IMG/VR virus record: IMGVR_UViG_2651869780_000020
Coordinates: 1 to 17,046 of that record
Length of the DNA: 17,046 nucleotides
Origin: a virus
Lineage: Duplodnaviria; Heunggongvirae; Uroviricota; Caudoviricetes
Reading direction: 5' to 3' (one strand)
Shown: positions 7,168 to 14,429 of the stretch, one piece after another
How the letters are laid out: each line of letters starts with the position of its first letter
Position numbering within the stretch: position 1 is the stretch's first letter
Notes under the pieces: model-generated
Told to the model about the DNA's origin: nothing
The model's database searches: none
The model's input: only the letters and a program-made list of their open reading frames with translations
Translations under genes and position numbers: made by a program

Positions 7168-8574
7168 ATGGCTACTTGGCAAGGAACAAATGGCGGATTG
7201 TTGGCTGGTATCGGTGGTGTCAACTCAAACGCTCCGAGCGTAAATGACATCGGCAATACGCTTCAGCTTATCAGACAGAACAATGATATTGAGCGTTCAG
7301 GCGCTAACAATGTTGGGCTGACTGCTTTGCAAGGTCTTTCAGGTATTGCGGGGGTGTTTCAGCAGGAAAAGCAGGCTCAGCGGCAGAAAGAATTTCAGCA
7401 GGCATACGCTAATGCTTATGCGTCTGGTGATCGCGGTGCTTTGCGTCAGTTGGCTACTCAATATCCAGACCAGATTGAATCCGTTCGTAAAGGCATGGGA
7501 TTCATTGACGAAGACCAGCGCAATTCTATCGGCACCTTAGCGGCTGGCGCACGCCTTGCGGCCTCGTCTCCAGAAGCAATGCAATCATGGCTGCAAAACA
7601 ACGCCAAGGAACTGGCGCGCGTCGGTGTTGACCCTAATAACGTTGCTCAGATGTATCAGCAGAATCCTTCAGGATTTGGTGAGTTTGTTGATCACCTTGG
7701 GATGGCTGCGCTTGGTCCGATTGATTACTTCAATGTTCAGGACAAGATGGCTGGTCGTGAGATTGACCGAGGCAGACTGGCAGAGACAATCCGCAGCAAT
7801 CAGGCTGGAGAAGCACTTCAGGCGAGAGGGCAAAACCTTTCCTATCAGTCAGCAATGACTGGGCACAATATCGCAGCACAACGCTTGGCTCTGGATCAGC
7901 AAGAGTTCGGGTTTAAGATGCAGCAAGCGCAGGAAAAGGCTCAGCAGTTGATTAGCGAAGCACCTAAGCTGTCAGTAAACATGGAAAAAGGCATCGAGAC
8001 GGCTGTAAACAATGCTACAGCATCATCAAACTCAGCCAATTCTATGAGTGCGCTTGCTCAACAGTTCAGAGCAGAAAAACCAACGACAGGTTTGTTCGGT
8101 AACGCACAGAACATGTTCGCAAAACTTACCGGAAGCGATACAACATTGCGTGATTTGCGCATCCGCCAAAATGCCCTTGTTAACAGTCAGGTTCTTAAAT
8201 TCCTACCTCCAGGCCCCGCAACGGATAAAGACGTTGAGATCGTTCGGCAGGGTGCACCAACTGACATGGATAACCCTGAGACGGTCGCAAGATGGCTTGA
8301 TGCGATGGCAAACCTTGAGCGACGAAACGCGCAGTTTAATGAGTTTAAAGCCGAGTGGATGAGCGCGAATGGCAATCCAGGACAATCGCGTAATGGCGGT
8401 CAGATATTGGGGTTGGATGTTAAAAAAGGTGAATCATTGGGGAGTGCCGTTAAGCGGTATATGTCAATGAATACTGACGCAGCGCCAGCACAAGATTCGA
8501 CACCTTCAGGAGAACCACGGAATCAGGTTGGATCATATACCTCAAAATCAGGCATTCAATTTACGGTGGAATGA
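7168..8574 (+). CDS. Ejection (injection) protein, P22 gp20-like
   Basis: 468 aa versus about 471 aa for P22 gp20; syntenic; RBS aagggg. Stop overlaps the next start (ATGA at 8571-8574). Confidence 0.8.
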
Positions 8575-10697
8575 TGAAAGTAACTGCAAACGGTAAGACA
8601 TTTACCTTCCCTGATGGTACGAGCACGGAAGATATTGGCACCGCCATTGATGAGTATTTTGCTGGTCAGGCTGTTCAGCAACAAACAGTTAATCAGGCCA
8701 ATAATGAACCAGCACGTGAAGAACCATCATTGATGCAACAAGCTGGCGATTGGCTCACAGGTGGTCAAAGTGCAGGGCAAATTGCAGAGCAGGCTGGTCG
8801 TGGTCTGGTAAACATACCATTTGACGTATTGCAGGGTGGCGCAAGTCTGATTAATGCAATCAGCCAGGGGCTTGGTGGCCCCAAGGTTTTGGATGATGTT
8901 TATCGCCCTGTCGATCGACCGACAGACCGTTGGGCGCAAGCCGGTGAAACATTTGGTGGGTATCTCCTGCCAATTGGCACAGCGGCAAAAGCTGCTGGAG
9001 CGACAGCAAAGCTCGCAGGAGACATCGGTTCCGCAGGAAACATGATTGCAGGTTCTCTTGCTGATGCTGCAAATCAGAAGGGTGATTTTGCACAAAATGC
9101 TGCCATTAACGGTGGTATCAATATTGGTGCTCAAGGCGTTCTTTCAGGTGTCGGGCGCGTTATTGCGCCAAGGGTTTCACAGGCTCTTGGTGGTGCAGCA
9201 CTGAATTCTGCTAATGATGTTTCCAGGATGGCAAAGTCAGGTGCTGGGCGTCAGTCAATTGCCAGTCAGGCCGCTAATGTGTCCGAAGATGTAGCAAAAG
9301 CGGCTGAGTCTGCTGGAATTGATATAAACGCATTAACACCAGGAATGCGATCTGGAAGTCGTGGAATTGCACAAGCCGAAGGCGCATTGGCATCAACACC
9401 AGGAATTGTTCAGGACGCCCATCAGGCAGCATTTAACGAAATATCATCAAAGTTAAGTCGAAACCTTGATGAATTTGGGGCCGCATCTGGAACGGCATCA
9501 GAAAAAAGTGCGGCTATAAAACAAAGGATTCTTCAAAATCTTGAACAGATGAAGGATGCCGAGCGCGCGGCATGGGATGACGTGCGGTCAACAATGCCAA
9601 ATCAAAAAGCAAGAATGCTAAATGGTAATGCCGTTATTCAGGCAGAGCGATCTGCTGGCATACCGCTTACTCCTGAAATGAAACAGTTTGTTCAGGCAAA
9701 CAATCAAGGTGGAGTAACATTTGATGGCATGAAAGCATGGAGAGCGAAATTTGCTGATGCGGAGCAAAAATATAAGCGTAGCGGAGAGGCAAATGCGGCA
9801 AGGAGAGCAGGGGAAATACGCCGGGCAATTACTGATGATATGCGCACAATGGCGGAAAACGGCGGATTTCTTGATGACTGGCAGAAAGCTAATGATCTGT
9901 CTAAAGCGAGGTTATCAGCACAAGAGAGTGCAGAGTCTGTTTTCGGGCGTGATTTGGCAACAGATGCACTGATTACGAATGGAGTAAAATCCCTTCAATC
10001 ATCGTCAGCTAAAGGTCTTAATGGCCCTGCTGGGTTCCATTCTATGATCCGCGCGCTGCCAGAATCAGAGCGTGTTCCTGCTATATCATCAATGTTGCAA
10101 GACGCTATCTCGCATGGTGTACGTGGTGGCAAAGCTGATGCAGCAGGAATTAACCATATCGCAGGGATACTTACCCCACAAAATGTAAAAGCCATTAGCA
10201 GATATTCCTCAGAACTCGGAAGAATTGCTGATGCATATGGCACTCTTGCAAGAGCAGCAGTGAAACCTCAGCAGTATATTGAAAGAACAGGGAGAACTGC
10301 CAATGTACTACGCGATCTGGATGCTGGTTTATCCAACGTCACATCAACAGTGTTAAATGCAATTGCCAACTCAACATCAGGTGCCATTGTTGGTGGCGCT
10401 GGAGGGGGTATTGCAGGCGCTGCCGCGGGTGCTTTAGTTGGCGCTGGGTTAAAAGGCGCTGTATCTAAAATTGCCACCACACGTAGTGGCCGATATGCGA
10501 TAGAGAAAGCTGTTCAGGAAGCCACCAAAGCAGTAAGAGCAGGCGGAAGTAAAGAAGCATTAGCGGCTGCGGAACGCAGATTTATGGCAAATAAGGCCGC
10601 CGTAAAAGCAATACGCGAGGCACTAGGAAACGAAGAGTTCCAGCGTTTAGCAAGAGCTGGAATTGTGGCATCGCTAAGCGGAATGGCACAGGAGTAA
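8571..10697 (+). CDS. Ejection (injection) protein, P22 gp16-like
   Basis: 708 aa, last and largest of the three ejection proteins. Gly/Ala-rich segments. Translationally coupled to gp20. Longer than P22 gp16 (about 609 aa as recalled). Confidence 0.8.
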
Positions 10698-11102
10698 TTA
10701 GTCATCCATGGATGGATTGAGCTTATCTCGTGTTGATGTGGCAATTTTCCCAACATTTTTCAACCAAGATTTTAAGAAGGATATGTCGTCCTTAATATCA
10801 TGAATATCCTCATTCTTTATACGATCAACCTTATCCTCTAAGCTCTCTATAGAACGCTCAATGCTAGACAGAGAGATTTTTAAGTCCCCTTGCTCACGTT
10901 CCAGTGAGGATTTGAGAGCACAATATTCGTTTTCTAGAATTCCTATTTTTTTTGTTAGAGAGTGCATTCGATACTCATACACCAAACCAGAAACGACTAA
11001 TGCAGCCAACAGAAACCATTCAAGCACACCAACCTCCTTAGTTTTGAGCAGGATACCAGATGATAATGTGTAGTTGGAGTAGCGCGGTTGTAATGCAAGC
11101 AT
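10698..11102 (-). CDS. Hypothetical membrane-anchored coiled-coil protein (candidate superinfection-exclusion function, P22 sieA position)
   Basis: 134 aa. One predicted transmembrane helix (LEWFLLAALVVSGLVYEY) followed by a heptad-rich charged segment (LENEYCALKSSLEREQGDLKISLSSIERSIESLEDKVDRIKNEDIHDIKDDISFLKSW). AT-rich. Convergent with gp16 with abutting stop codons (TAATTA at 10695-10700). No obvious SD sequence. No family recognised. Confidence 0.55.
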   Translation of the reverse strand: MLALQPRYSNYTLSSGILLKTKEVGVLEWFLLAALVVSGLVYEYRMHSLTKKIGILENEYCALKSSLEREQGDLKISLSSIERSIESLEDKVDRIKNEDIHDIKDDISFLKSWLKNVGKIATSTRDKLNPSMDD

Positions 11103-11183: not shown

Positions 11184-12152
11184 ATGACTGAAAAGAAAAG
11201 TGGCGAAGGGAAAGCTAAGGGCGGGATCGCTCGCGCAAAGTCGCTGACTAAAGAGCAGCGTTCTGAAATAGCAAAGAAAGCAGCTGCTGCAAGATGGAAA
11301 AGTAAGATTCTCAGGGCAACTCATCGTGGTAACTTTTTAGATGATTTTGGCATTGATGCTGAATGTTATGTACTGGATGACGAGTCGAAAACTGTCGTTG
11401 TTACGAAAACTGGATTATCTCAGTTGCTAGGGATTGGTGAACATGCCAGGGATTTAGATCAACTGCTTGGCGCTCAGTATATGAGCAAATACCGAGATCT
11501 AGAATTGCAGCGAAAAATGGAAAATCCCTATAAATTTCAACTTACTTCGAAGTCTAAAACCGTTCATCAAGCGTTAGGTTATGACATTACAGCAATTGTT
11601 GATATTGGTAGGGCACTAATAGAAGCCAAAGATAATGACGATCTACCACAATCACGGTTAAAGGCAGCCGCCGCAGCACAGAGACTTATTAATGCCTCCG
11701 CTAAGGCGGGAATTAAGGGGGTTGCGTATGCGCTTGCTGGTTATCGTCCAGAAGTTCAGGCTGTCATTGACGAGTTCAAAGCGTTTGTTCGTGAAGAGGC
11801 TCGTCAATATGAAAAGGAATTTCCAGATGAGCTATACGAGGAGTGGTATCGACTGTACGGCCTGAATAGGCCAGAGAAAGGACGGCCTATTCGTTTTGGG
11901 CAGCTAACCAACATGCAGATATACACCCCGCTAGCAAAGAGTAAAGGTAAAATCCTTGAACAGATTCGAGCCAGCCGAGACGAGAACGGAAAACAATCTG
12001 ATAAGTTGCATCTGTTCCTTTCTGAAATTGGTGTCAAGGCTTTGCGTCAGCATATCGGTAAGCTTCTTGGTGTCGCAGCGATGAGTGAGACAAGAGAAGA
12101 ATACGAAAAAGGAATAGAAAAGGTTTTCGGAAGAATGAAACCAGAAATCTAA
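11184..12152 (+). CDS. Hypothetical 322-aa accessory (moron) protein with a basic N-terminal helix-turn-helix-like motif; function unknown
   Basis: Long ORF with its own promoter and a strong terminator. The TTG start at 11121 in the ORF track is rejected in favour of ATG 11184 (MTEKKSGEGKAKGGIARAKSLTKEQRSEIAKKAAAARW..). The remainder is a charged, helical-looking domain. Not part of the conserved P22 structural set. Confidence 0.75.
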   Translation: MTEKKSGEGKAKGGIARAKSLTKEQRSEIAKKAAAARWKSKILRATHRGNFLDDFGIDAECYVLDDESKTVVVTKTGLSQLLGIGEHARDLDQLLGAQYMSKYRDLELQRKMENPYKFQLTSKSKTVHQALGYDITAIVDIGRALIEAKDNDDLPQSRLKAAAAAQRLINASAKAGIKGVAYALAGYRPEVQAVIDEFKAFVREEARQYEKEFPDELYEEWYRLYGLNRPEKGRPIRFGQLTNMQIYTPLAKSKGKILEQIRASRDENGKQSDKLHLFLSEIGVKALRQHIGKLLGVAAMSETREEYEKGIEKVFGRMKPEI

Positions 12153-12157
12153 TTATG

Positions 12158-12183
12158 AAACCCACCGTCAGGTGGGTTTTTTG
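12158..12183. terminator. Intrinsic terminator, probably bidirectional
   Basis: aaacccacc (12158-12166), loop gtca, ggtgggttt (12171-12179), T-run to 12183; A-rich on the upstream side. Lies between the convergent 322-aa gene (+) and the 67-aa gene (-). Confidence 0.8.
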
Positions 12184-12198
12184 TTGGAGATAAAATGG

Positions 12199-12402
12199 TT
12201 AACCAAATCGATCCTTAAAGCGCCTATCGCTGTTGCGTCTCTCCATTTTACTGTTGCAGTACGGACAAAGATGCTGTTTCTTTCCATCGATAGTCCATGT
12301 GAAGTACTTTTTCTTAAATCCAGCACCACAGATATCGCAACTTCTTGGTTTAAACATACTGGCTATGAAGATAAGAACAACAAATCCTATGATCCATTCC
12401 AT
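12199..12402 (-). CDS. Small membrane-anchored zinc-ribbon protein (67 aa)
   Basis: N-terminal hydrophobic helix (EWIIGFVVLIFIASMF) followed by CDIC..(19 aa)..CPYC, i.e. four Cys in a C-x2-C...C-x2-C arrangement, and a basic tail. Ends just before the bidirectional terminator. Confidence 0.5.
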   Translation of the reverse strand: MEWIIGFVVLIFIASMFKPRSCDICGAGFKKKYFTWTIDGKKQHLCPYCNSKMERRNSDRRFKDRFG

Positions 12403-12543
12403 ATCATGTACCTGTTTTAACTTTATTTTTTGATTTTTAGGGATTAATCAGAAACTTTATCTTGCGATTAAGCAAAGCTACTAGCTAACAAAAGAGTGCG
12501 TATACAATCAATCGTTTCACATCAACCTCAACAAGGAGAAATC

Positions 12544-12729
12544 ATGACCATAGAAGAACGCCTGAACAACATTGAGTTGAACCAAACCCTGCTTGACCAG
12601 CGACTTTCAGATCTTGAGCTTAAAGATCTTGATGCGCAAATATCAGAAGCAGAAGCCAAGCTCTCCAGCTTAAACCACCGCAAGAAGCAAATCCGCAACA
12701 GAATTACTCAGGGACGCGGAAGCTGTTGA
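12544..12729 (+). CDS. Small coiled-coil protein (61 aa)
   Basis: ATG 12544 preceded by a strong SD AAGGAG (12533-12538) at 5-nt spacing; the GTG at 12496 in the ORF track is rejected. Sequence MTIEERLNNIELNQTLLDQRLSDLELKDLDAQISEAEAKL.. is heptad-like. The 3' end overlaps the convergent 69-aa ORF by 26 nt. Confidence 0.5.
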   Translation: MTIEERLNNIELNQTLLDQRLSDLELKDLDAQISEAEAKLSSLNHRKKQIRNRITQGRGSC

Positions 12730-12913
12730 GGTGGGATGCTAGGTCTCTATCGTTAAAATCAAGGCTGCTAATCATTTCATTGTAAATGGCGTTTTTATCT
12801 TCCATTGGCAGTCTTGAGTAAACCAGACACAGAGCATATTTCAGGGAGTTTAGCTCTTTCTCTAGCTCTTCCTTGCTTGACGTTGTTGACTTAATAAACT
12901 GTTTTTTATTCAT
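12704..12913 (-). CDS. Hypothetical 69-aa protein, translationally coupled downstream of mnt
   Basis: On the - strand its ATG overlaps the mnt TGA stop (ATGA at 12910-12913). No recognisable family. Confidence 0.45.
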   Translation of the reverse strand: MNKKQFIKSTTSSKEELEKELNSLKYALCLVYSRLPMEDKNAIYNEMISSLDFNDRDLASHLNSFRVPE

Positions 12914-13161
12914 TTTGCATCCTTACCATACATGGTCTTTAGCGTCTCAACATCGTGTTCAAGATCTATCAATCGTGATGCTATAGTTGCAAGGTCTAGT
13001 GCTTGAATGTGTTTATTTTTTTCGGTCCACGCTTCAAGTGCCGCGACCATCTCAGCATTTAATGAACGAGAATTAGCCTCAGCCAGTTCAATAAGACGTT
13101 CCTTTATCTCTACAGGAAGCCTCAGATTCACTTGAGGGTTTTTGTACTTACGATCAGACAT
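12910..13161 (-). CDS. mnt: Mnt-like ribbon-helix-helix repressor (Arc/MetJ superfamily)
   Basis: 83 aa, the same length as P22 Mnt as recalled. N-terminus ..NLRLPVEIKERLIELAEANSRSLNAEMVAALEAW matches the RHH beta-strand/helix pattern of P22 Mnt (..FRMPMEVREKLKFRAEANGRSMNSELLQIV..). Divergent from arc. Confidence 0.8.
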   Translation of the reverse strand: MSDRKYKNPQVNLRLPVEIKERLIELAEANSRSLNAEMVAALEAWTEKNKHIQALDLATIASRLIDLEHDVETLKTMYGKDAK

Positions 13162-13266: not shown

Positions 13267-13407
13267 ATGAAGGTAAAAACACTGCGTATGCCAGAGAAGC
13301 TAGAAAAAATTCTTGAAGAAAAAGCAAAGGAAGAGTGTCGCTCATTCAGCGCAGAAGTAATTAAACGGGTGCTGGACAGCCTGAGGAGAGAGGGGATAAC
13401 GGTGTGA
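13267..13407 (+). CDS. arc: Arc-like ribbon-helix-helix repressor (46 aa; below the ORF-track size cutoff)
   Basis: Own translation: MKVKTLRMPEKLEKILEEKAKEECRSFSAEVIKRVLDSLRREGITV. The segment RSFSAEVIKRVLDSLRREG resembles P22 Arc RSVNSEIYQRVMESFKKEG as recalled. SD GGAGG at 13256-13260. Sits between mnt and ant as in P22 immI. Confidence 0.75.
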   Translation: MKVKTLRMPEKLEKILEEKAKEECRSFSAEVIKRVLDSLRREGITV

Positions 13408-13423: not shown

Positions 13424-13472
13424 AAAGAAATCAAAACAGTGAAGCCCCAACTGCGGGAACAGTCAGGGCTTC
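13424..13472 (-). terminator. Intrinsic terminator oriented for leftward (- strand) transcription in the arc-ant spacer
   Basis: Stem GAAGCCC (13441-13447) / GGGCTTC (13466-13472) with an inner ACTG/CAGT helix. On the - strand it is followed by ACUGUUUUGAUUUCUUU (complement of 13424-13440). No U-run follows it on the + strand. Confidence 0.55.
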
Positions 13473-13505
13473 GGTATCGTAAAACCACGCATAGGAATTA
13501 ACGAC
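13424..13505 (-). ncRNA. Predicted sar-like small antisense RNA, complementary to the ant ribosome-binding site
   Basis: Inferred from a - strand promoter inside the ant 5' end (see 13512-13540) plus the - strand terminator at 13424-13472. The predicted transcript of about 80 nt is antisense to the ant SD (agga 13493-13496) and start region, analogous to the P22 Sar RNA. Ends are approximate. Confidence 0.4.
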
Positions 13506-14429
13506 ATGAAAAGTATAGCAACAGCAGTATCTACTATCAATGTACCATTCCACGGCGCAGAGCTTTATGTTGTCAATCACAACGGCGAACCGTATACCCC
13601 AATGAAACCTATCGTTGAGGGAATGGGGCTAGACTGGAAATCTCAACATAAGAAGATTTCTCAACGCTTCTCGAAGGGTATGGTGGAAATCACCATACCT
13701 TCTGCCGGTGGGGTGCAAGCCATGATTTGTATGGCTTTACGAAAATTGGCAGCTTGGTTGAACAGCATCAGTCCTAACAAAGTCCGCCCTGAAATCCGCG
13801 ACAAGGAAATCCAGTATCAGGAAGAGTGTGACGATGTGCTCTACGAGTACTGGACTAAAGGCCATGTAGTTAACCCACGCAAAGCTAAAAAGGCGTTGCC
13901 GGGTAAAATCACCACTGAACAGCAGGAAGCCATTAAACAACTCGTCATGAGTCGCGGTCAGTCTCTGCCAAAAGAAAAACAGGCTAAGGCGATGATCACC
14001 ATGTGGTCGTCACTGAAATCTCATTTTGGGTGTTCATACAAAGAAATCAGCGATGAGCAGTTTACCGAAGCTCTGTCACTTGCAGCTCGCGTTCCGCTTG
14101 AAGGCGAGTTAATCGGCAAACAAGAGAAGAAAGCAAACGAGCTTTCTGCAAAAGAAGCAAACAGCCTTGTATGGTTATGGGATTATGCCAACCGCTCACA
14201 GGCATTATTCCGCGAACTGTATCCGGCGCTAAAACAAATTCAATCGAACTATTCCGGCAGATGTCATGACTGCGGTTATGAGTTCTCCCGTATTATCGAT
14301 ATGGCGAGAGATGTTTTAATCAACCATACACGAGATGTTGATATTAATGAGCCAGACGGACCAACGAATCTTTCCGCATGGATGAGACTTAAGAATAAAG
14401 AATTACCTCCTTCAGTACATAACTACTGA
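13506..14429 (+). CDS. ant: Antirepressor (Ant-like)
   Basis: 307 aa versus about 300 aa for P22 Ant. Located directly downstream of arc. N-terminal pattern (..VPFHGAELYVV..GEPYTPMKPIVEGMGLDWKSQHKKI..) is reminiscent of phage antirepressor N-terminal domains. Followed by a terminator. Confidence 0.7.
   Translation: MKSIATAVSTINVPFHGAELYVVNHNGEPYTPMKPIVEGMGLDWKSQHKKISQRFSKGMVEITIPSAGGVQAMICMALRKLAAWLNSISPNKVRPEIRDKEIQYQEECDDVLYEYWTKGHVVNPRKAKKALPGKITTEQQEAIKQLVMSRGQSLPKEKQAKAMITMWSSLKSHFGCSYKEISDEQFTEALSLAARVPLEGELIGKQEKKANELSAKEANSLVWLWDYANRSQALFRELYPALKQIQSNYSGRCHDCGYEFSRIIDMARDVLINHTRDVDINEPDGPTNLSAWMRLKNKELPPSVHNY
13512..13540 (-). promoter_or_regulatory. Psar-like leftward promoter inside the first codons of ant
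   Basis: On the - strand: TTGATA (complement of 13535-13540), 17-bp spacer, TATACT (complement of 13512-13517); the predicted start is near the ant ATG. Confidence 0.5.

What the first reader, a model, noticed from the sequence alone, without database searches (positions are those of the whole stretch)
12496..12913. Convergent, 3'-overlapping small genes (61-aa coiled coil on + versus 69-aa on -)
The + strand ORF has one of the strongest Shine-Dalgarno sequences in the window (AAGGAG at 5-nt spacing), yet its last 26 nt overlap the 3' end of the - strand 69-aa ORF that is coupled to mnt. If both are real their transcripts are mutually antisense, which can couple their expression; if only one is real, the other signal needs explaining.
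Basis: seen in the sequence. Interest (0 to 1): 0.4.

Follow-up and report, generated by a model that had tools for sequence, protein, structure and literature searches.

The report
Two real overlapping small prophage genes
Two tiny genes that face each other and share 26 bases in a P22-like prophage are both genuine protein-coding genes of unknown function, sitting where the lysogenic mnt operon and the lytic late operon run into each other, which is an ordinary arrangement for this variable phage region.

Summary
A 61-aa ORF lies on the + strand (ATG 12544, stop 12729, AAGGAG 5 nt upstream). A 69-aa ORF lies on the - strand (12913 to 12704) and is joined to mnt by an ATGA stop/start overlap. 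The two share 26 nt.

Both are real genes. dN/dS is 0.12 and 0.11 in their own frames; the other frames give ratios near or above 1, carry stop codons, or both. Twenty-five distinct DNA sequences encode the identical ORF61 protein.

ORF61 is a discrete cassette. Homology breaks at its ribosome-binding site/ATG and at its stop. It occurs with at least 5 upstream and 4 downstream contexts, and about 40% of loci lack ORF69.

ORF69 always follows an Arc/Mnt-family gene, directly or after one intervening ORF. I never saw it without ORF61.

Providencia prophages keep the same convergent pair at 40-50% protein identity, with a 10-nt overlap.

Within the overlap the DNA evolves as ORF69 coding sequence (pN/pS 0.14, against 18 in the ORF61 frame). 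The overlap therefore uses ORF61's unconstrained tail.

No terminator separates the genes, so antisense transcription follows from the layout, but it is not shown to regulate anything.

Neither protein matches a characterised family. The region is the known 'ant moron' of P22-like phages. Interest is low to moderate.

The parts
12533..12538 (+). Shine-Dalgarno AAGGAG of ORF61, 5 nt before the ATG
   Evidence: Read from the sequence. Other upstream contexts in related loci also place a purine-rich SD-like motif a few nt before the same ATG.
12544..12729 (+). ORF61: 61-aa protein predicted as a single long helix (coiled-coil type); phrog_7586; function unknown
   Evidence: ORF list. PHROG match 3e-44 over the full length. 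dN/dS 0.117 across 50 distinct sequences; 25 distinct DNA sequences encode the identical protein. AlphaFold2 helix 3-60, pLDDT 94. Homology to other loci breaks at the SD/ATG and at the stop.
12704..12913 (-). ORF69: 69-aa protein predicted as three helices; phrog_16466; function unknown; distal cistron of the mnt operon
   Evidence: ORF list. PHROG match 5.5e-51. dN/dS 0.114. Follows an Arc/Mnt-family gene in every locus examined, directly in most and after one intervening ORF in two Providencia loci. Remote homologues P0090, P0091 and P0093. AlphaFold2 pLDDT 76.
12704..12729 (.). 26-nt dual-coding 3' overlap (ORF61 ...TQGRGSC*, ORF69 ...NSFRVPE*)
   Evidence: Coordinates. In ORF69-bearing loci pN/pS is 0.14 in the ORF69 frame and 18 in the ORF61 frame. 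In ORF69-lacking loci it is 0.78 in both frames.
12910..12913 (-). ATGA: the mnt stop codon overlaps the ORF69 start codon (translational coupling signal)
   Evidence: Read from the sequence. The same 4-nt overlap is seen in divergent loci L104-L111, L114 and L120-L122.
12920..12924 (-). AAGGA Shine-Dalgarno for ORF69, inside the last codons of mnt, 6 nt before the ATG
   Evidence: Read from the sequence.
12908..12950 (.). Conserved 43-nt junction (mnt 3' end, SD and ATGA), shared by different mnt alleles and different downstream cargo genes
   Evidence: Short 95% matches to query positions 506-548 in many E. coli genomes, next to a ClpP-like gene. Similar short matches in phages.
12910..13161 (-). 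mnt-like Arc-family repressor gene (83 aa), first cistron of the leftward operon
   Evidence: Pfam Arc PF03869, 3.2e-10. 96% DNA identity to the CUS-3 mnt gene.
12199..12402 (-). 67-aa membrane-anchored zinc-ribbon ORF. It is the next - strand gene after ORF69, so it may be reached by read-through across antisense ORF61.
   Evidence: ORF list. Only weak zinc-ribbon hits. No convincing sigma-70 promoter of its own in 12403-12760. The link to the mnt operon is inference.
12157..12182 (.). Strong hairpin with a T-run; intrinsic terminator after the P63C gene and the only terminator-like structure to the left of the pair
   Evidence: Fold energy -24 kcal/mol, z = -4.2 on +; -18.6 kcal/mol, z = -3.7 on -. 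In 16 of 63 related loci this hairpin lies 13 nt before the ORF61 ATG.

Best explanation
Both ORFs are genuine small protein-coding genes, each under its own selection. They lie in the variable 'ant moron' (the region between gene 16 and the tailspike gene) of a P22-like prophage.

ORF69 is the distal cistron of the leftward mnt operon. It is translated by coupling to mnt (ATGA overlap plus an AAGGA inside mnt). It occupies a slot that other relatives fill with different cargo genes.

ORF61 is a rightward gene in the late-operon direction. It is inherited as a discrete cassette bounded by its own start and stop codons. In many relatives only 13 nt separate it from an intrinsic terminator, so there it can only be transcribed by polymerases that read through that terminator. 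The likely source is antiterminated late transcription.

The two genes abut with no terminator between them. The 26-nt overlap is tolerated because it falls on the last seven residues of ORF61, which evolve almost neutrally, while the same bases are constrained as the ORF69 C-terminus.

A necessary consequence of this layout is that mnt-operon transcripts run antisense through ORF61, and late transcripts run antisense through ORF69 and mnt. This probably restricts ORF69 to lysogeny and ORF61 to late lytic growth.

Shown: the gene status of both ORFs, the cassette structure, the asymmetric constraint in the overlap, and the absence of a terminator. Inferred: the sources of transcription, mutual exclusion of expression, and any function. 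The functions of both proteins remain unknown.
For: - Coordinates and translation signals.
- Purifying selection in the annotated frames: ORF61 dN/dS 0.117, ORF69 0.114. Variable sites by codon position are 28/17/47 and 14/9/40. Most other frames give ratios near or above 1. The antisense frame whose third positions coincide gives lower ratios (0.33 and 0.16) but carries stop codons.
- 25 distinct DNA sequences encode the same ORF61 protein.
- Cassette behaviour of ORF61: 5 upstream classes and at least 4 downstream classes, with homology breaking 0-6 nt before the ATG in most contexts (19 nt in one) and 0-3 nt after the stop in loci with other downstream partners. E. coli genome matches end exactly at query position 327, which is 12729.
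- ORF69 follows an Arc/Mnt-family gene in every locus, directly in most.
- Alternative cargo sits downstream of mnt in other loci.
- The pair is conserved in Providencia at 40% and 50% identity with a 10-nt overlap.
- Constraint within the overlap is asymmetric.
- There is no hairpin or terminator in the overlap: z = +0.9 and -0.7.
- A terminator lies 13 nt before the ORF61 ATG in 16 of 63 loci.
- There is no good sigma-70 promoter upstream of ORF61.
- Stranded RNA-seq of a Kapi1 lysogen reports + strand 'antisense' signal over the last third of the genome. Kapi1_061 and Kapi1_062 are not among the undetected genes (PMC12922286).
Against: - There is no direct transcript, ribosome-profiling or peptide evidence for either protein in this window.
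- The Kapi1 paper gives no per-gene values for 061 and 062, and it reports that mnt itself was undetected in lysogens. That weakens the assumption that the mnt operon is active in every lysogen.
- Weak promoter-like sites exist upstream of ORF61 (TAGCTA-15-TACAAT), so an own promoter is not excluded in the window's context.
- The families are narrow (Escherichia, Salmonella, Serratia, Providencia). Many sequences are closely related and not independent, so the dN/dS values rest mainly on about 10 divergent lineages.
- The overlap analysis uses only 21 nt.
Confidence: 0.65

Rival explanations
1. ORF61 and ORF69 are a functional pair. For example, ORF69 could be a prophage-expressed effector and ORF61 a late-expressed antagonist or partner. 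In that case the terminator-less convergent layout has been selected to make their expression mutually exclusive.
For: The convergent, 3'-overlapping pair is retained from Escherichia, Salmonella and Serratia to Providencia, although protein identity has fallen to 40-50% and the surrounding cargo differs. ORF69 was never seen without ORF61. No lineage has a terminator between them, whereas P22 has one between the genes at the equivalent positions.
Against: ORF61 occurs without ORF69 in 26 of 63 viral loci and in roughly 56 of 130 E. coli genomes, still intact and conserved. In L113 ORF69 is deleted to a remnant while ORF61 is intact. The dependence of ORF69 on ORF61 can be explained physically, because the ORF69 stop codon lies inside ORF61. 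Shared position in one ancestral moron explains the synteny. There is no similarity to any known paired system.
Confidence: 0.12
2. Only one of the two ORFs is a real gene. The other is a by-product open frame on the opposite strand.
For: Both are short ORFans with no family assignment. Antisense frames of real genes can stay open by chance: the - strand 56-aa ORF at 12528-12698 inside ORF61 is an example.
Against: 184 of the 210 nt of ORF69 and 160 of the 186 nt of ORF61 do not overlap the other gene, and those parts show dN/dS of 0.11-0.12 in their own frames. Each has remote homologues. Each has its own SD. The ORF69 C-terminal constraint disappears when ORF69 is absent. The 56-aa antisense frame carries stops in some homologues (mean 0.5 stops per sequence).
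Confidence: 0.03
3. ORF61 is conserved mainly as DNA or RNA rather than as a protein. It could be a recombination linker ('boundary sequence') between two cargo slots, or it could hold the promoter or leader for the - strand cargo gene that starts 15-45 nt from its ATG.
For: ORF61 is the constant element between two highly variable slots. In several loci the - strand neighbour (sieA and others) starts only 15-45 nt from the ORF61 ATG, so its promoter must lie inside ORF61 or further upstream. In P22 the annotated sieA promoter overlaps the start of the + strand ORF at the equivalent position.
Against: Variation is concentrated at third codon positions and is synonymous in the ORF61 frame (pS 0.31, pN 0.045). 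A purely cis-acting element would not produce that pattern. No promoter-like site was found on the - strand inside ORF61 in the window. The Providencia homologue keeps the protein features (MTIEERL start, same length) at only about 40% identity.
Confidence: 0.05

Closest known systems
The 'ant moron' / immI region of P22-like phages (Villafane et al. 2008, PMC2629481; P22 record NC_002371)
   Same: Same location, between the gene 16 homologue and the tailspike gene. Same core genes: mnt, arc, sar RNA and ant. Same layout as P22: a - strand exclusion-type gene, then a + strand small ORF, then a - strand small ORF that follows mnt. Same high turnover of gene content.
   Different: ORF61 and ORF69 are unrelated in sequence to the P22 genes at the equivalent positions, namely the unannotated + strand 121-aa ORF and orf59a. 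I take the 121-aa ORF to be the gene Villafane et al. call hkcC, but I did not verify that. P22 has an annotated terminator between its convergent pair. Here the genes overlap by 26 nt and no terminator is present.
sar antisense RNA control of ant in P22 (Rfam RF00262)
   Same: It is cis-antisense transcription within the same region of the same kind of phage. A sar homologue is present in this window at 13438-13504.
   Different: sar is a dedicated 68-nt non-coding RNA with its own promoter and terminator and a defined target, the ant ribosome-binding site. Here the antisense RNA would simply be the untranslated continuation of two mRNAs, with no evidence of a dedicated regulatory RNA.
Convergent (tail-to-tail) overlapping gene pairs in bacterial and phage genomes, and transcriptional interference between face-to-face promoters in temperate phages such as coliphage 186 pR/pL (my own knowledge, not looked up)
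   Same: There is a short 3' overlap with dual coding. Opposing lysogenic and lytic transcription units face each other.
   Different: In 186 the interference between two promoters has been shown and forms the switch itself. Here the promoters are distant, the genes are accessory, and interference is only inferred.
Kapi1_061/Kapi1_062 of Escherichia phage Kapi1 and orf61/orf69 of Salmonella phage Emek
   Same: These are the same two genes at 97-100% protein identity in the same arrangement.
   Different: The upstream modules differ, as do the mnt alleles (78-aa and 77-aa Arc-family genes). Kapi1_061 is annotated with an N-terminus extended by 31 codons that overlaps Kapi1_060.

Membership tests
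'ant moron' of P22-like phages | Lies between the gene 16 (ejection protein) homologue and the tailspike gene | tested here: met
   The gp20 homologue is at 7168-8574 (PF16928). The next ORF, 8571-10697, sits at the gp16 position, though Pfam did not hit it. The tailspike head-binding domain is at 14530-16569. Related loci carry PF26808 Phage_P22_gp16 immediately upstream.
'ant moron' of P22-like phages | Carries immI genes (mnt, arc, sar, ant) and non-morphogenetic genes that differ between relatives | tested here: met
   Arc-family genes at 12910-13161 and 13267-13407 and ant at 13506-14429. sar at 13438-13504. Gene content is variable across loci.
P22 orf59a-type gene (distal gene of the mnt operon) | Immediately downstream of mnt on the same strand | tested here: met
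   ATGA overlap at 12910-12913. The same holds in most divergent homologous loci.
P22 orf59a-type gene (distal gene of the mnt operon) | Sequence homology to P22 orf59a | tested here: not met
   BLASTP E = 0.53, 7 of 28 identities.
P22 orf59a-type gene (distal gene of the mnt operon) | Followed by the mnt-operon terminator | tested here: not met
   No terminator-like site and no stable fold (z = -0.7) downstream of the ORF69 stop.
Haemolysin XhlA family (PF10779), the name given to longer versions of ORF61 in RefSeq and Kapi1 | Score at or above the Pfam gathering threshold (34.7 bits) | tested here: not met
   14.1 bits for the 61-aa protein. 12.5-12.9 bits for the 89-92-aa versions.
Haemolysin XhlA family (PF10779) | Membrane-associated protein with a hydrophobic segment (my own knowledge of XhlA) | tested here: not met
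   The ORF61 sequence is highly charged with no hydrophobic stretch. It is predicted as one continuous amphipathic helix, residues 3-60. The hydrophobic N-terminal extension in the 92-aa annotation exists in only one upstream context.
PHROG families phrog_7586 (ORF61) and phrog_16466 (ORF69) | Full-length significant match to the family profile | tested here: met
   3.3e-44 over 1-61 of 61 and 5.5e-51 over 1-69 of 69. Both families are of unknown function.
Known anti-phage defence proteins (PADLOC) | Significant match to a defence-system model | tested here: not met
   ORF69 has no hit. ORF61 has only coiled-coil noise (PbeC 16 bits, JetC 12 bits).
Cis-antisense regulated convergent gene pair | Overlapping transcripts from both strands that change each other's level | not testable with these tools
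   I could only show the precondition, which is the absence of a terminator between the genes. The published stranded RNA-seq of the Kapi1 lysogen gives no per-gene values for these genes in the text held.

The most novel reading that the evidence does not exclude
ORF61 and ORF69 form a previously unrecognised two-protein module that is tied to the lysis-lysogeny state. ORF69 would be made with Mnt in the prophage, and ORF61 would be made only from antiterminated late transcripts. The terminator-less convergent overlap, kept from Providencia to Escherichia, would be the device that makes the two mutually exclusive. One possibility is that ORF61, a single long predicted coiled-coil helix, neutralises ORF69 or the coiled-coil tetramerisation domain of Mnt once the phage commits to lysis.
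Probability: 0.1. Interest if true: 0.55.

Novelty: new member of a known kind. Interest (0 to 1): 0.27.

Why it matters
The analysis settles the annotation question: both small ORFs should be kept as genes. It fixes the ORF61 start at ATG 12544 and shows that the 'hemolysin XhlA family' label on longer versions is unsupported.

It also gives a clean small example of how a convergent dual-coding overlap is tolerated: one gene's unconstrained tail is laid over the other gene's constrained C-terminus.

It identifies ORF61 as a conserved anchor between two fast-changing cargo slots of the P22-like 'ant moron'. About 2% of complete E. coli genomes carry ORF61.

If the pair turned out to act together, it would add a new accessory layer to the immI region. 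Nothing here shows that, and as it stands the finding is ordinary for this region.

Tried and rejected
- **Exhaustive HMM search with the ORF69 alignment**. It returned 8 proteins, of which three small ones (P0090, P0091, P0093) look like true remote relatives. P0089, P0092 and P0094 are repetitive proteins that I discarded as spurious.
- **Genome-contig scan with the ORF61 alignment.** It found nothing.
- **Rfam, gathering and permissive thresholds**. Nothing lies in 12496-12913. The only hits are sar, plus a sub-threshold sroH-like hit on the terminator hairpin.
- **RNA folding of the overlap on both strands**. No structure beyond shuffled controls, so the idea of a shared bidirectional terminator as in P22 was rejected.
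- **Promoter scans**. There is no convincing sigma-70 promoter for ORF61, nor one on the - strand inside ORF61. Aligning the regions upstream of sieA in P22, L105 and L113 showed no conserved promoter.
- **C-over-G skew of the - strand RNA after the ORF69 stop**. It is G-rich, so there is no obvious Rho loading site. This is weak evidence only.
- **Homology to the P22 genes at equivalent positions.** None with orf59a or the 121-aa + strand ORF.
- **Per-gene expression of Kapi1_061 and Kapi1_062.** No supplementary files are held for the Kapi1 transcriptome paper, and the second Kapi1 paper has no transcript data.
- **The Kapi1 'hyp19' toxicity report.** I tried to map it to this region, but the numbering cannot be resolved with certainty.

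Full report

**Observation.**
- The + strand ORF opens mechanically at GTG 12496. Its conserved start is ATG 12544, which gives 61 aa.
- AAGGAG lies at 12533-12538, 5 nt upstream of that ATG.
- The - strand ORF runs from 12913 to 12704 (69 aa). Its ATG overlaps the mnt stop as ATGA, and an AAGGA lies 6 nt upstream within mnt.
- The shared stretch is 12704-12729 (26 nt).
- AAGGAG as a hexamer is not enriched in the window (10 matches against 7.5 expected). Its weight comes from its position, not its rarity.

**Are both genes real?** Both match PHROG families end to end. Both are annotated as hypothetical proteins in phages Kapi1 and Emek and in RefSeq.

I collected homologous loci from viral contigs, assemblies and metagenomes. 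That gave 53 distinct ORF61 DNA sequences and 22 distinct ORF69 DNA sequences. Twenty-five different DNA sequences encode the identical ORF61 protein.

| Gene (part outside the overlap) | dN/dS (Nei-Gojobori) | Variable sites at codon positions 1/2/3 |
|---|---|---|
| ORF61 | 0.117 | 28/17/47 |
| ORF69 | 0.114 | 14/9/40 |

Most other frames give ratios near or above 1. The antisense frame whose third positions coincide gives lower ratios (0.33 and 0.16) but carries stop codons.

**ORF61 is a cassette.** Across 63 viral loci, homology to the window breaks 0-6 nt before the ORF61 ATG in most contexts (19 nt in one). In loci with other downstream partners it breaks 0-3 nt after the stop. E. coli genome matches likewise end at 12729 or begin at about 12533.

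Five upstream contexts occur among the 63 loci:

| Upstream context | Loci |
|---|---|
| A - strand membrane gene | 17 |
| A terminator hairpin 13 nt before the ATG | 16 |
| A - strand gene for a 60-aa secreted protein | 13 |
| The window's 67-aa gene module | 11 |
| A terminator 35 nt before the ATG | 4 |
| ORF61 truncated by the contig end | 2 |

Downstream partners, counted over 69 loci (the viral loci, the window and divergent loci), also vary:

| Downstream partner | Spacing from ORF61 | Loci |
|---|---|---|
| ORF69 | 26-nt overlap | 44 |
| 105-aa secreted protein | 9-nt gap | 11 |
| Module carrying a ClpP-like gene | not overlapping | 9 |
| 122/201-aa genes | 21-nt gap | 4 |
| mnt directly, with a deleted ORF69 remnant | 68-nt gap | 1 |

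These upstream and downstream contexts combine freely. By a separate count, 26 of the 63 viral loci have ORF61 without ORF69. Among complete E. coli genomes, 130 of 5426 carry ORF61 and 74 carry ORF69.

**ORF69 is mnt-operon cargo.** In every locus ORF69 follows an Arc/Mnt-family gene. In most loci it follows directly, usually with the same ATGA overlap. In two Providencia loci a 92-aa ORF intervenes. The upstream Arc-family gene comes in several different alleles. Other relatives carry unrelated genes in the same slot. A 43-nt junction (12908-12950) is shared among these alternatives. I never saw ORF69 without ORF61. That is expected physically, because the ORF69 stop codon lies inside ORF61.

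**Deep conservation of the pair.** An exhaustive profile search with ORF69 found few relatives. One of them (P0090, 50% identity) lies in Providencia P22-like prophages. There it again follows mnt and again converges on a 60-aa ORF that begins MTIEERL and is 40% identical to ORF61 over 43 aligned residues. In those loci the overlap is 10 nt, and both genes again show low dN/dS (0.18 and 0.12). The convergent arrangement is therefore old, but the length and sequence of the overlap are not conserved.

**The overlap itself.** In ORF69-bearing loci the 21 shared coding bases vary almost only in ways that are synonymous or conservative for ORF69 (HLN[S/T]FR[V/I][P/H]E) and non-synonymous for ORF61 (QGRGS, RGCES, QGREN and others). 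pN/pS is 0.14 in the ORF69 frame and 18 in the ORF61 frame. In loci without ORF69 both frames give 0.78. The AlphaFold2 model of ORF61 is a single helix (residues 3-60, mean pLDDT 94) whose confidence falls at the C-terminal end. The remote ORF69 relatives keep the C-terminal LN.[YF]R motif. I conclude that the overlap costs little: it uses an unconstrained tail of ORF61. The sample is small (21 nt, 9-10 sequences), so these numbers are indicative only.

**Transcription (inferred).**
- No terminator-like site or stable fold lies at or near the overlap: z = +0.9 on the + strand and -0.7 on the - strand.
- The nearest strong hairpin is at 12157-12182 (z = -4.2).
- There is no convincing sigma-70 promoter upstream of ORF61. 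In 16 related loci only 13 nt separate a terminator from the ORF61 ATG. In those loci ORF61 must be transcribed by terminator read-through, most plausibly by antiterminated late transcription.
- It follows that late transcripts run antisense across ORF69 and mnt. Transcripts from the mnt promoter run antisense across ORF61 and may reach the 67-aa - strand gene.
- In other loci the - strand neighbour starts 15-45 nt from the ORF61 ATG. Its promoter must therefore lie within or beyond ORF61.
- P22 has the same layout: sieA, a + strand 121-aa ORF, then orf59a and mnt. There, however, an annotated terminator lies between the convergent genes.
- The only expression data I could reach come from stranded RNA-seq of a Kapi1 lysogen. 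[quoted passage not shown] This is compatible with late-direction read-through but is not specific.

**Function.** Neither protein matches a characterised family or fold. The 'hemolysin XhlA family' name attached to 89-92-aa versions of ORF61 rests on a sub-threshold coiled-coil match (12.5-14.1 bits against a cut-off of 34.7) and on an N-terminal extension that exists in only one upstream context. ORF69 and ORF61 have no homology to P22 orf59a or to the 121-aa ORF.

**Verdict.** These are two genuine ORFan accessory genes at the meeting point of the prophage-expressed mnt operon and the late transcription direction, within a region already known for rapid gene turnover. The antisense relation is real as architecture and unproven as regulation. 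A dedicated paired function remains possible at about 10%, because the arrangement is conserved in Providencia. Against it, ORF61 survives intact without ORF69 in about 40% of loci.

Noticed in passing
window 13438-13504 (-), with 13540-13512 and 13472-13441: A full-length homologue of the P22 sar antisense RNA (Rfam RF00262, 76.6 bits) lies between arc and ant. It has a promoter-like site (TTGATA-17-TATACT with TG) inside the start of ant and a terminator hairpin.
   Followed up: partly
window 12157-12182 and 12199-12543: A strong hairpin terminator follows the P63C-domain gene. In 16 of 63 related loci the same hairpin sits 13 nt before the ORF61 ATG. In the window, a - strand 67-aa membrane-anchored zinc-ribbon gene plus a 141-nt AT-rich spacer appears to have been inserted between the terminator and ORF61.
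   Followed up: partly
window 12908-12950: A 43-nt stretch at the 3' end of mnt (the last codons ...TMYGKDAK, the SD and the ATGA) recurs at about 95% identity in many E. coli genomes. There it lies next to different mnt alleles and different downstream genes, for example a ClpP-like protease subunit. It looks like a recombination junction between mosaic modules.
   Followed up: partly
protein P0040 (E. coli, 58 aa); compare window 12544-12627 and 14340-14429: One database protein joins ORF61 residues 1-28 to the last ~30 residues of Ant. This implies a prophage in which a deletion removed the rest of ORF61, ORF69, mnt, arc and most of ant.
   Followed up: no
L001 2420-2698 (Kapi1_061) and RefSeq proteins P0001-P0004: ORF61 is annotated as 89-92 aa in Kapi1 and several RefSeq genomes, sometimes as 'hemolysin XhlA family protein'. 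The extra N-terminus overlaps the neighbouring - strand gene and exists in only one upstream context. The XhlA score is far below threshold.
   Followed up: yes
window 11184-12152 (+) and 10698-11102 (-): A 322-aa P63C-domain protein (PF10546, phrog_2384) and a divergent 134-aa ORF with no family lie between the gp16-position gene and the finding. They are further cargo genes of the same variable region.
   Followed up: no
L005 3196-3513 (-) and L116 3316-3648 (+): The 105-aa signal-peptide protein that replaces ORF69 directly downstream of mnt in 11 loci has a homologue in Providencia locus L116. There it lies beyond the ORF61-like gene, not next to mnt. The same cargo gene therefore occupies different slots of the moron.
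   Followed up: no
L041 and L063, 3600-4600: In some ORF61-bearing loci the mnt position is taken by a 213-aa repressor-like gene that, from the sequence alone, looks like an HTH-type repressor (not checked against any family), next to an Arc-like gene. ORF61 is therefore not tied to Mnt itself.
   Followed up: no
L117 1519-1731, L118 3001-3213: A remote ORF69-like protein (P0093, 71 aa) occurs in GC-rich contigs on the strand opposite to apparent tail genes. This would fit a moron-type gene outside P22-like phages.
   Followed up: partly
Literature on phage Kapi1 (PMC12922286, PMC8787464): In Kapi1 lysogens mnt (Kapi1_063) was below detection in stranded RNA-seq. A construct for deleting 'hyp19' was toxic in non-lysogens, and the authors blamed flanking hypothetical genes. 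hyp19 is probably Kapi1_058, so the flank could include Kapi1_059-061. The numbering could not be resolved.
   Followed up: partly
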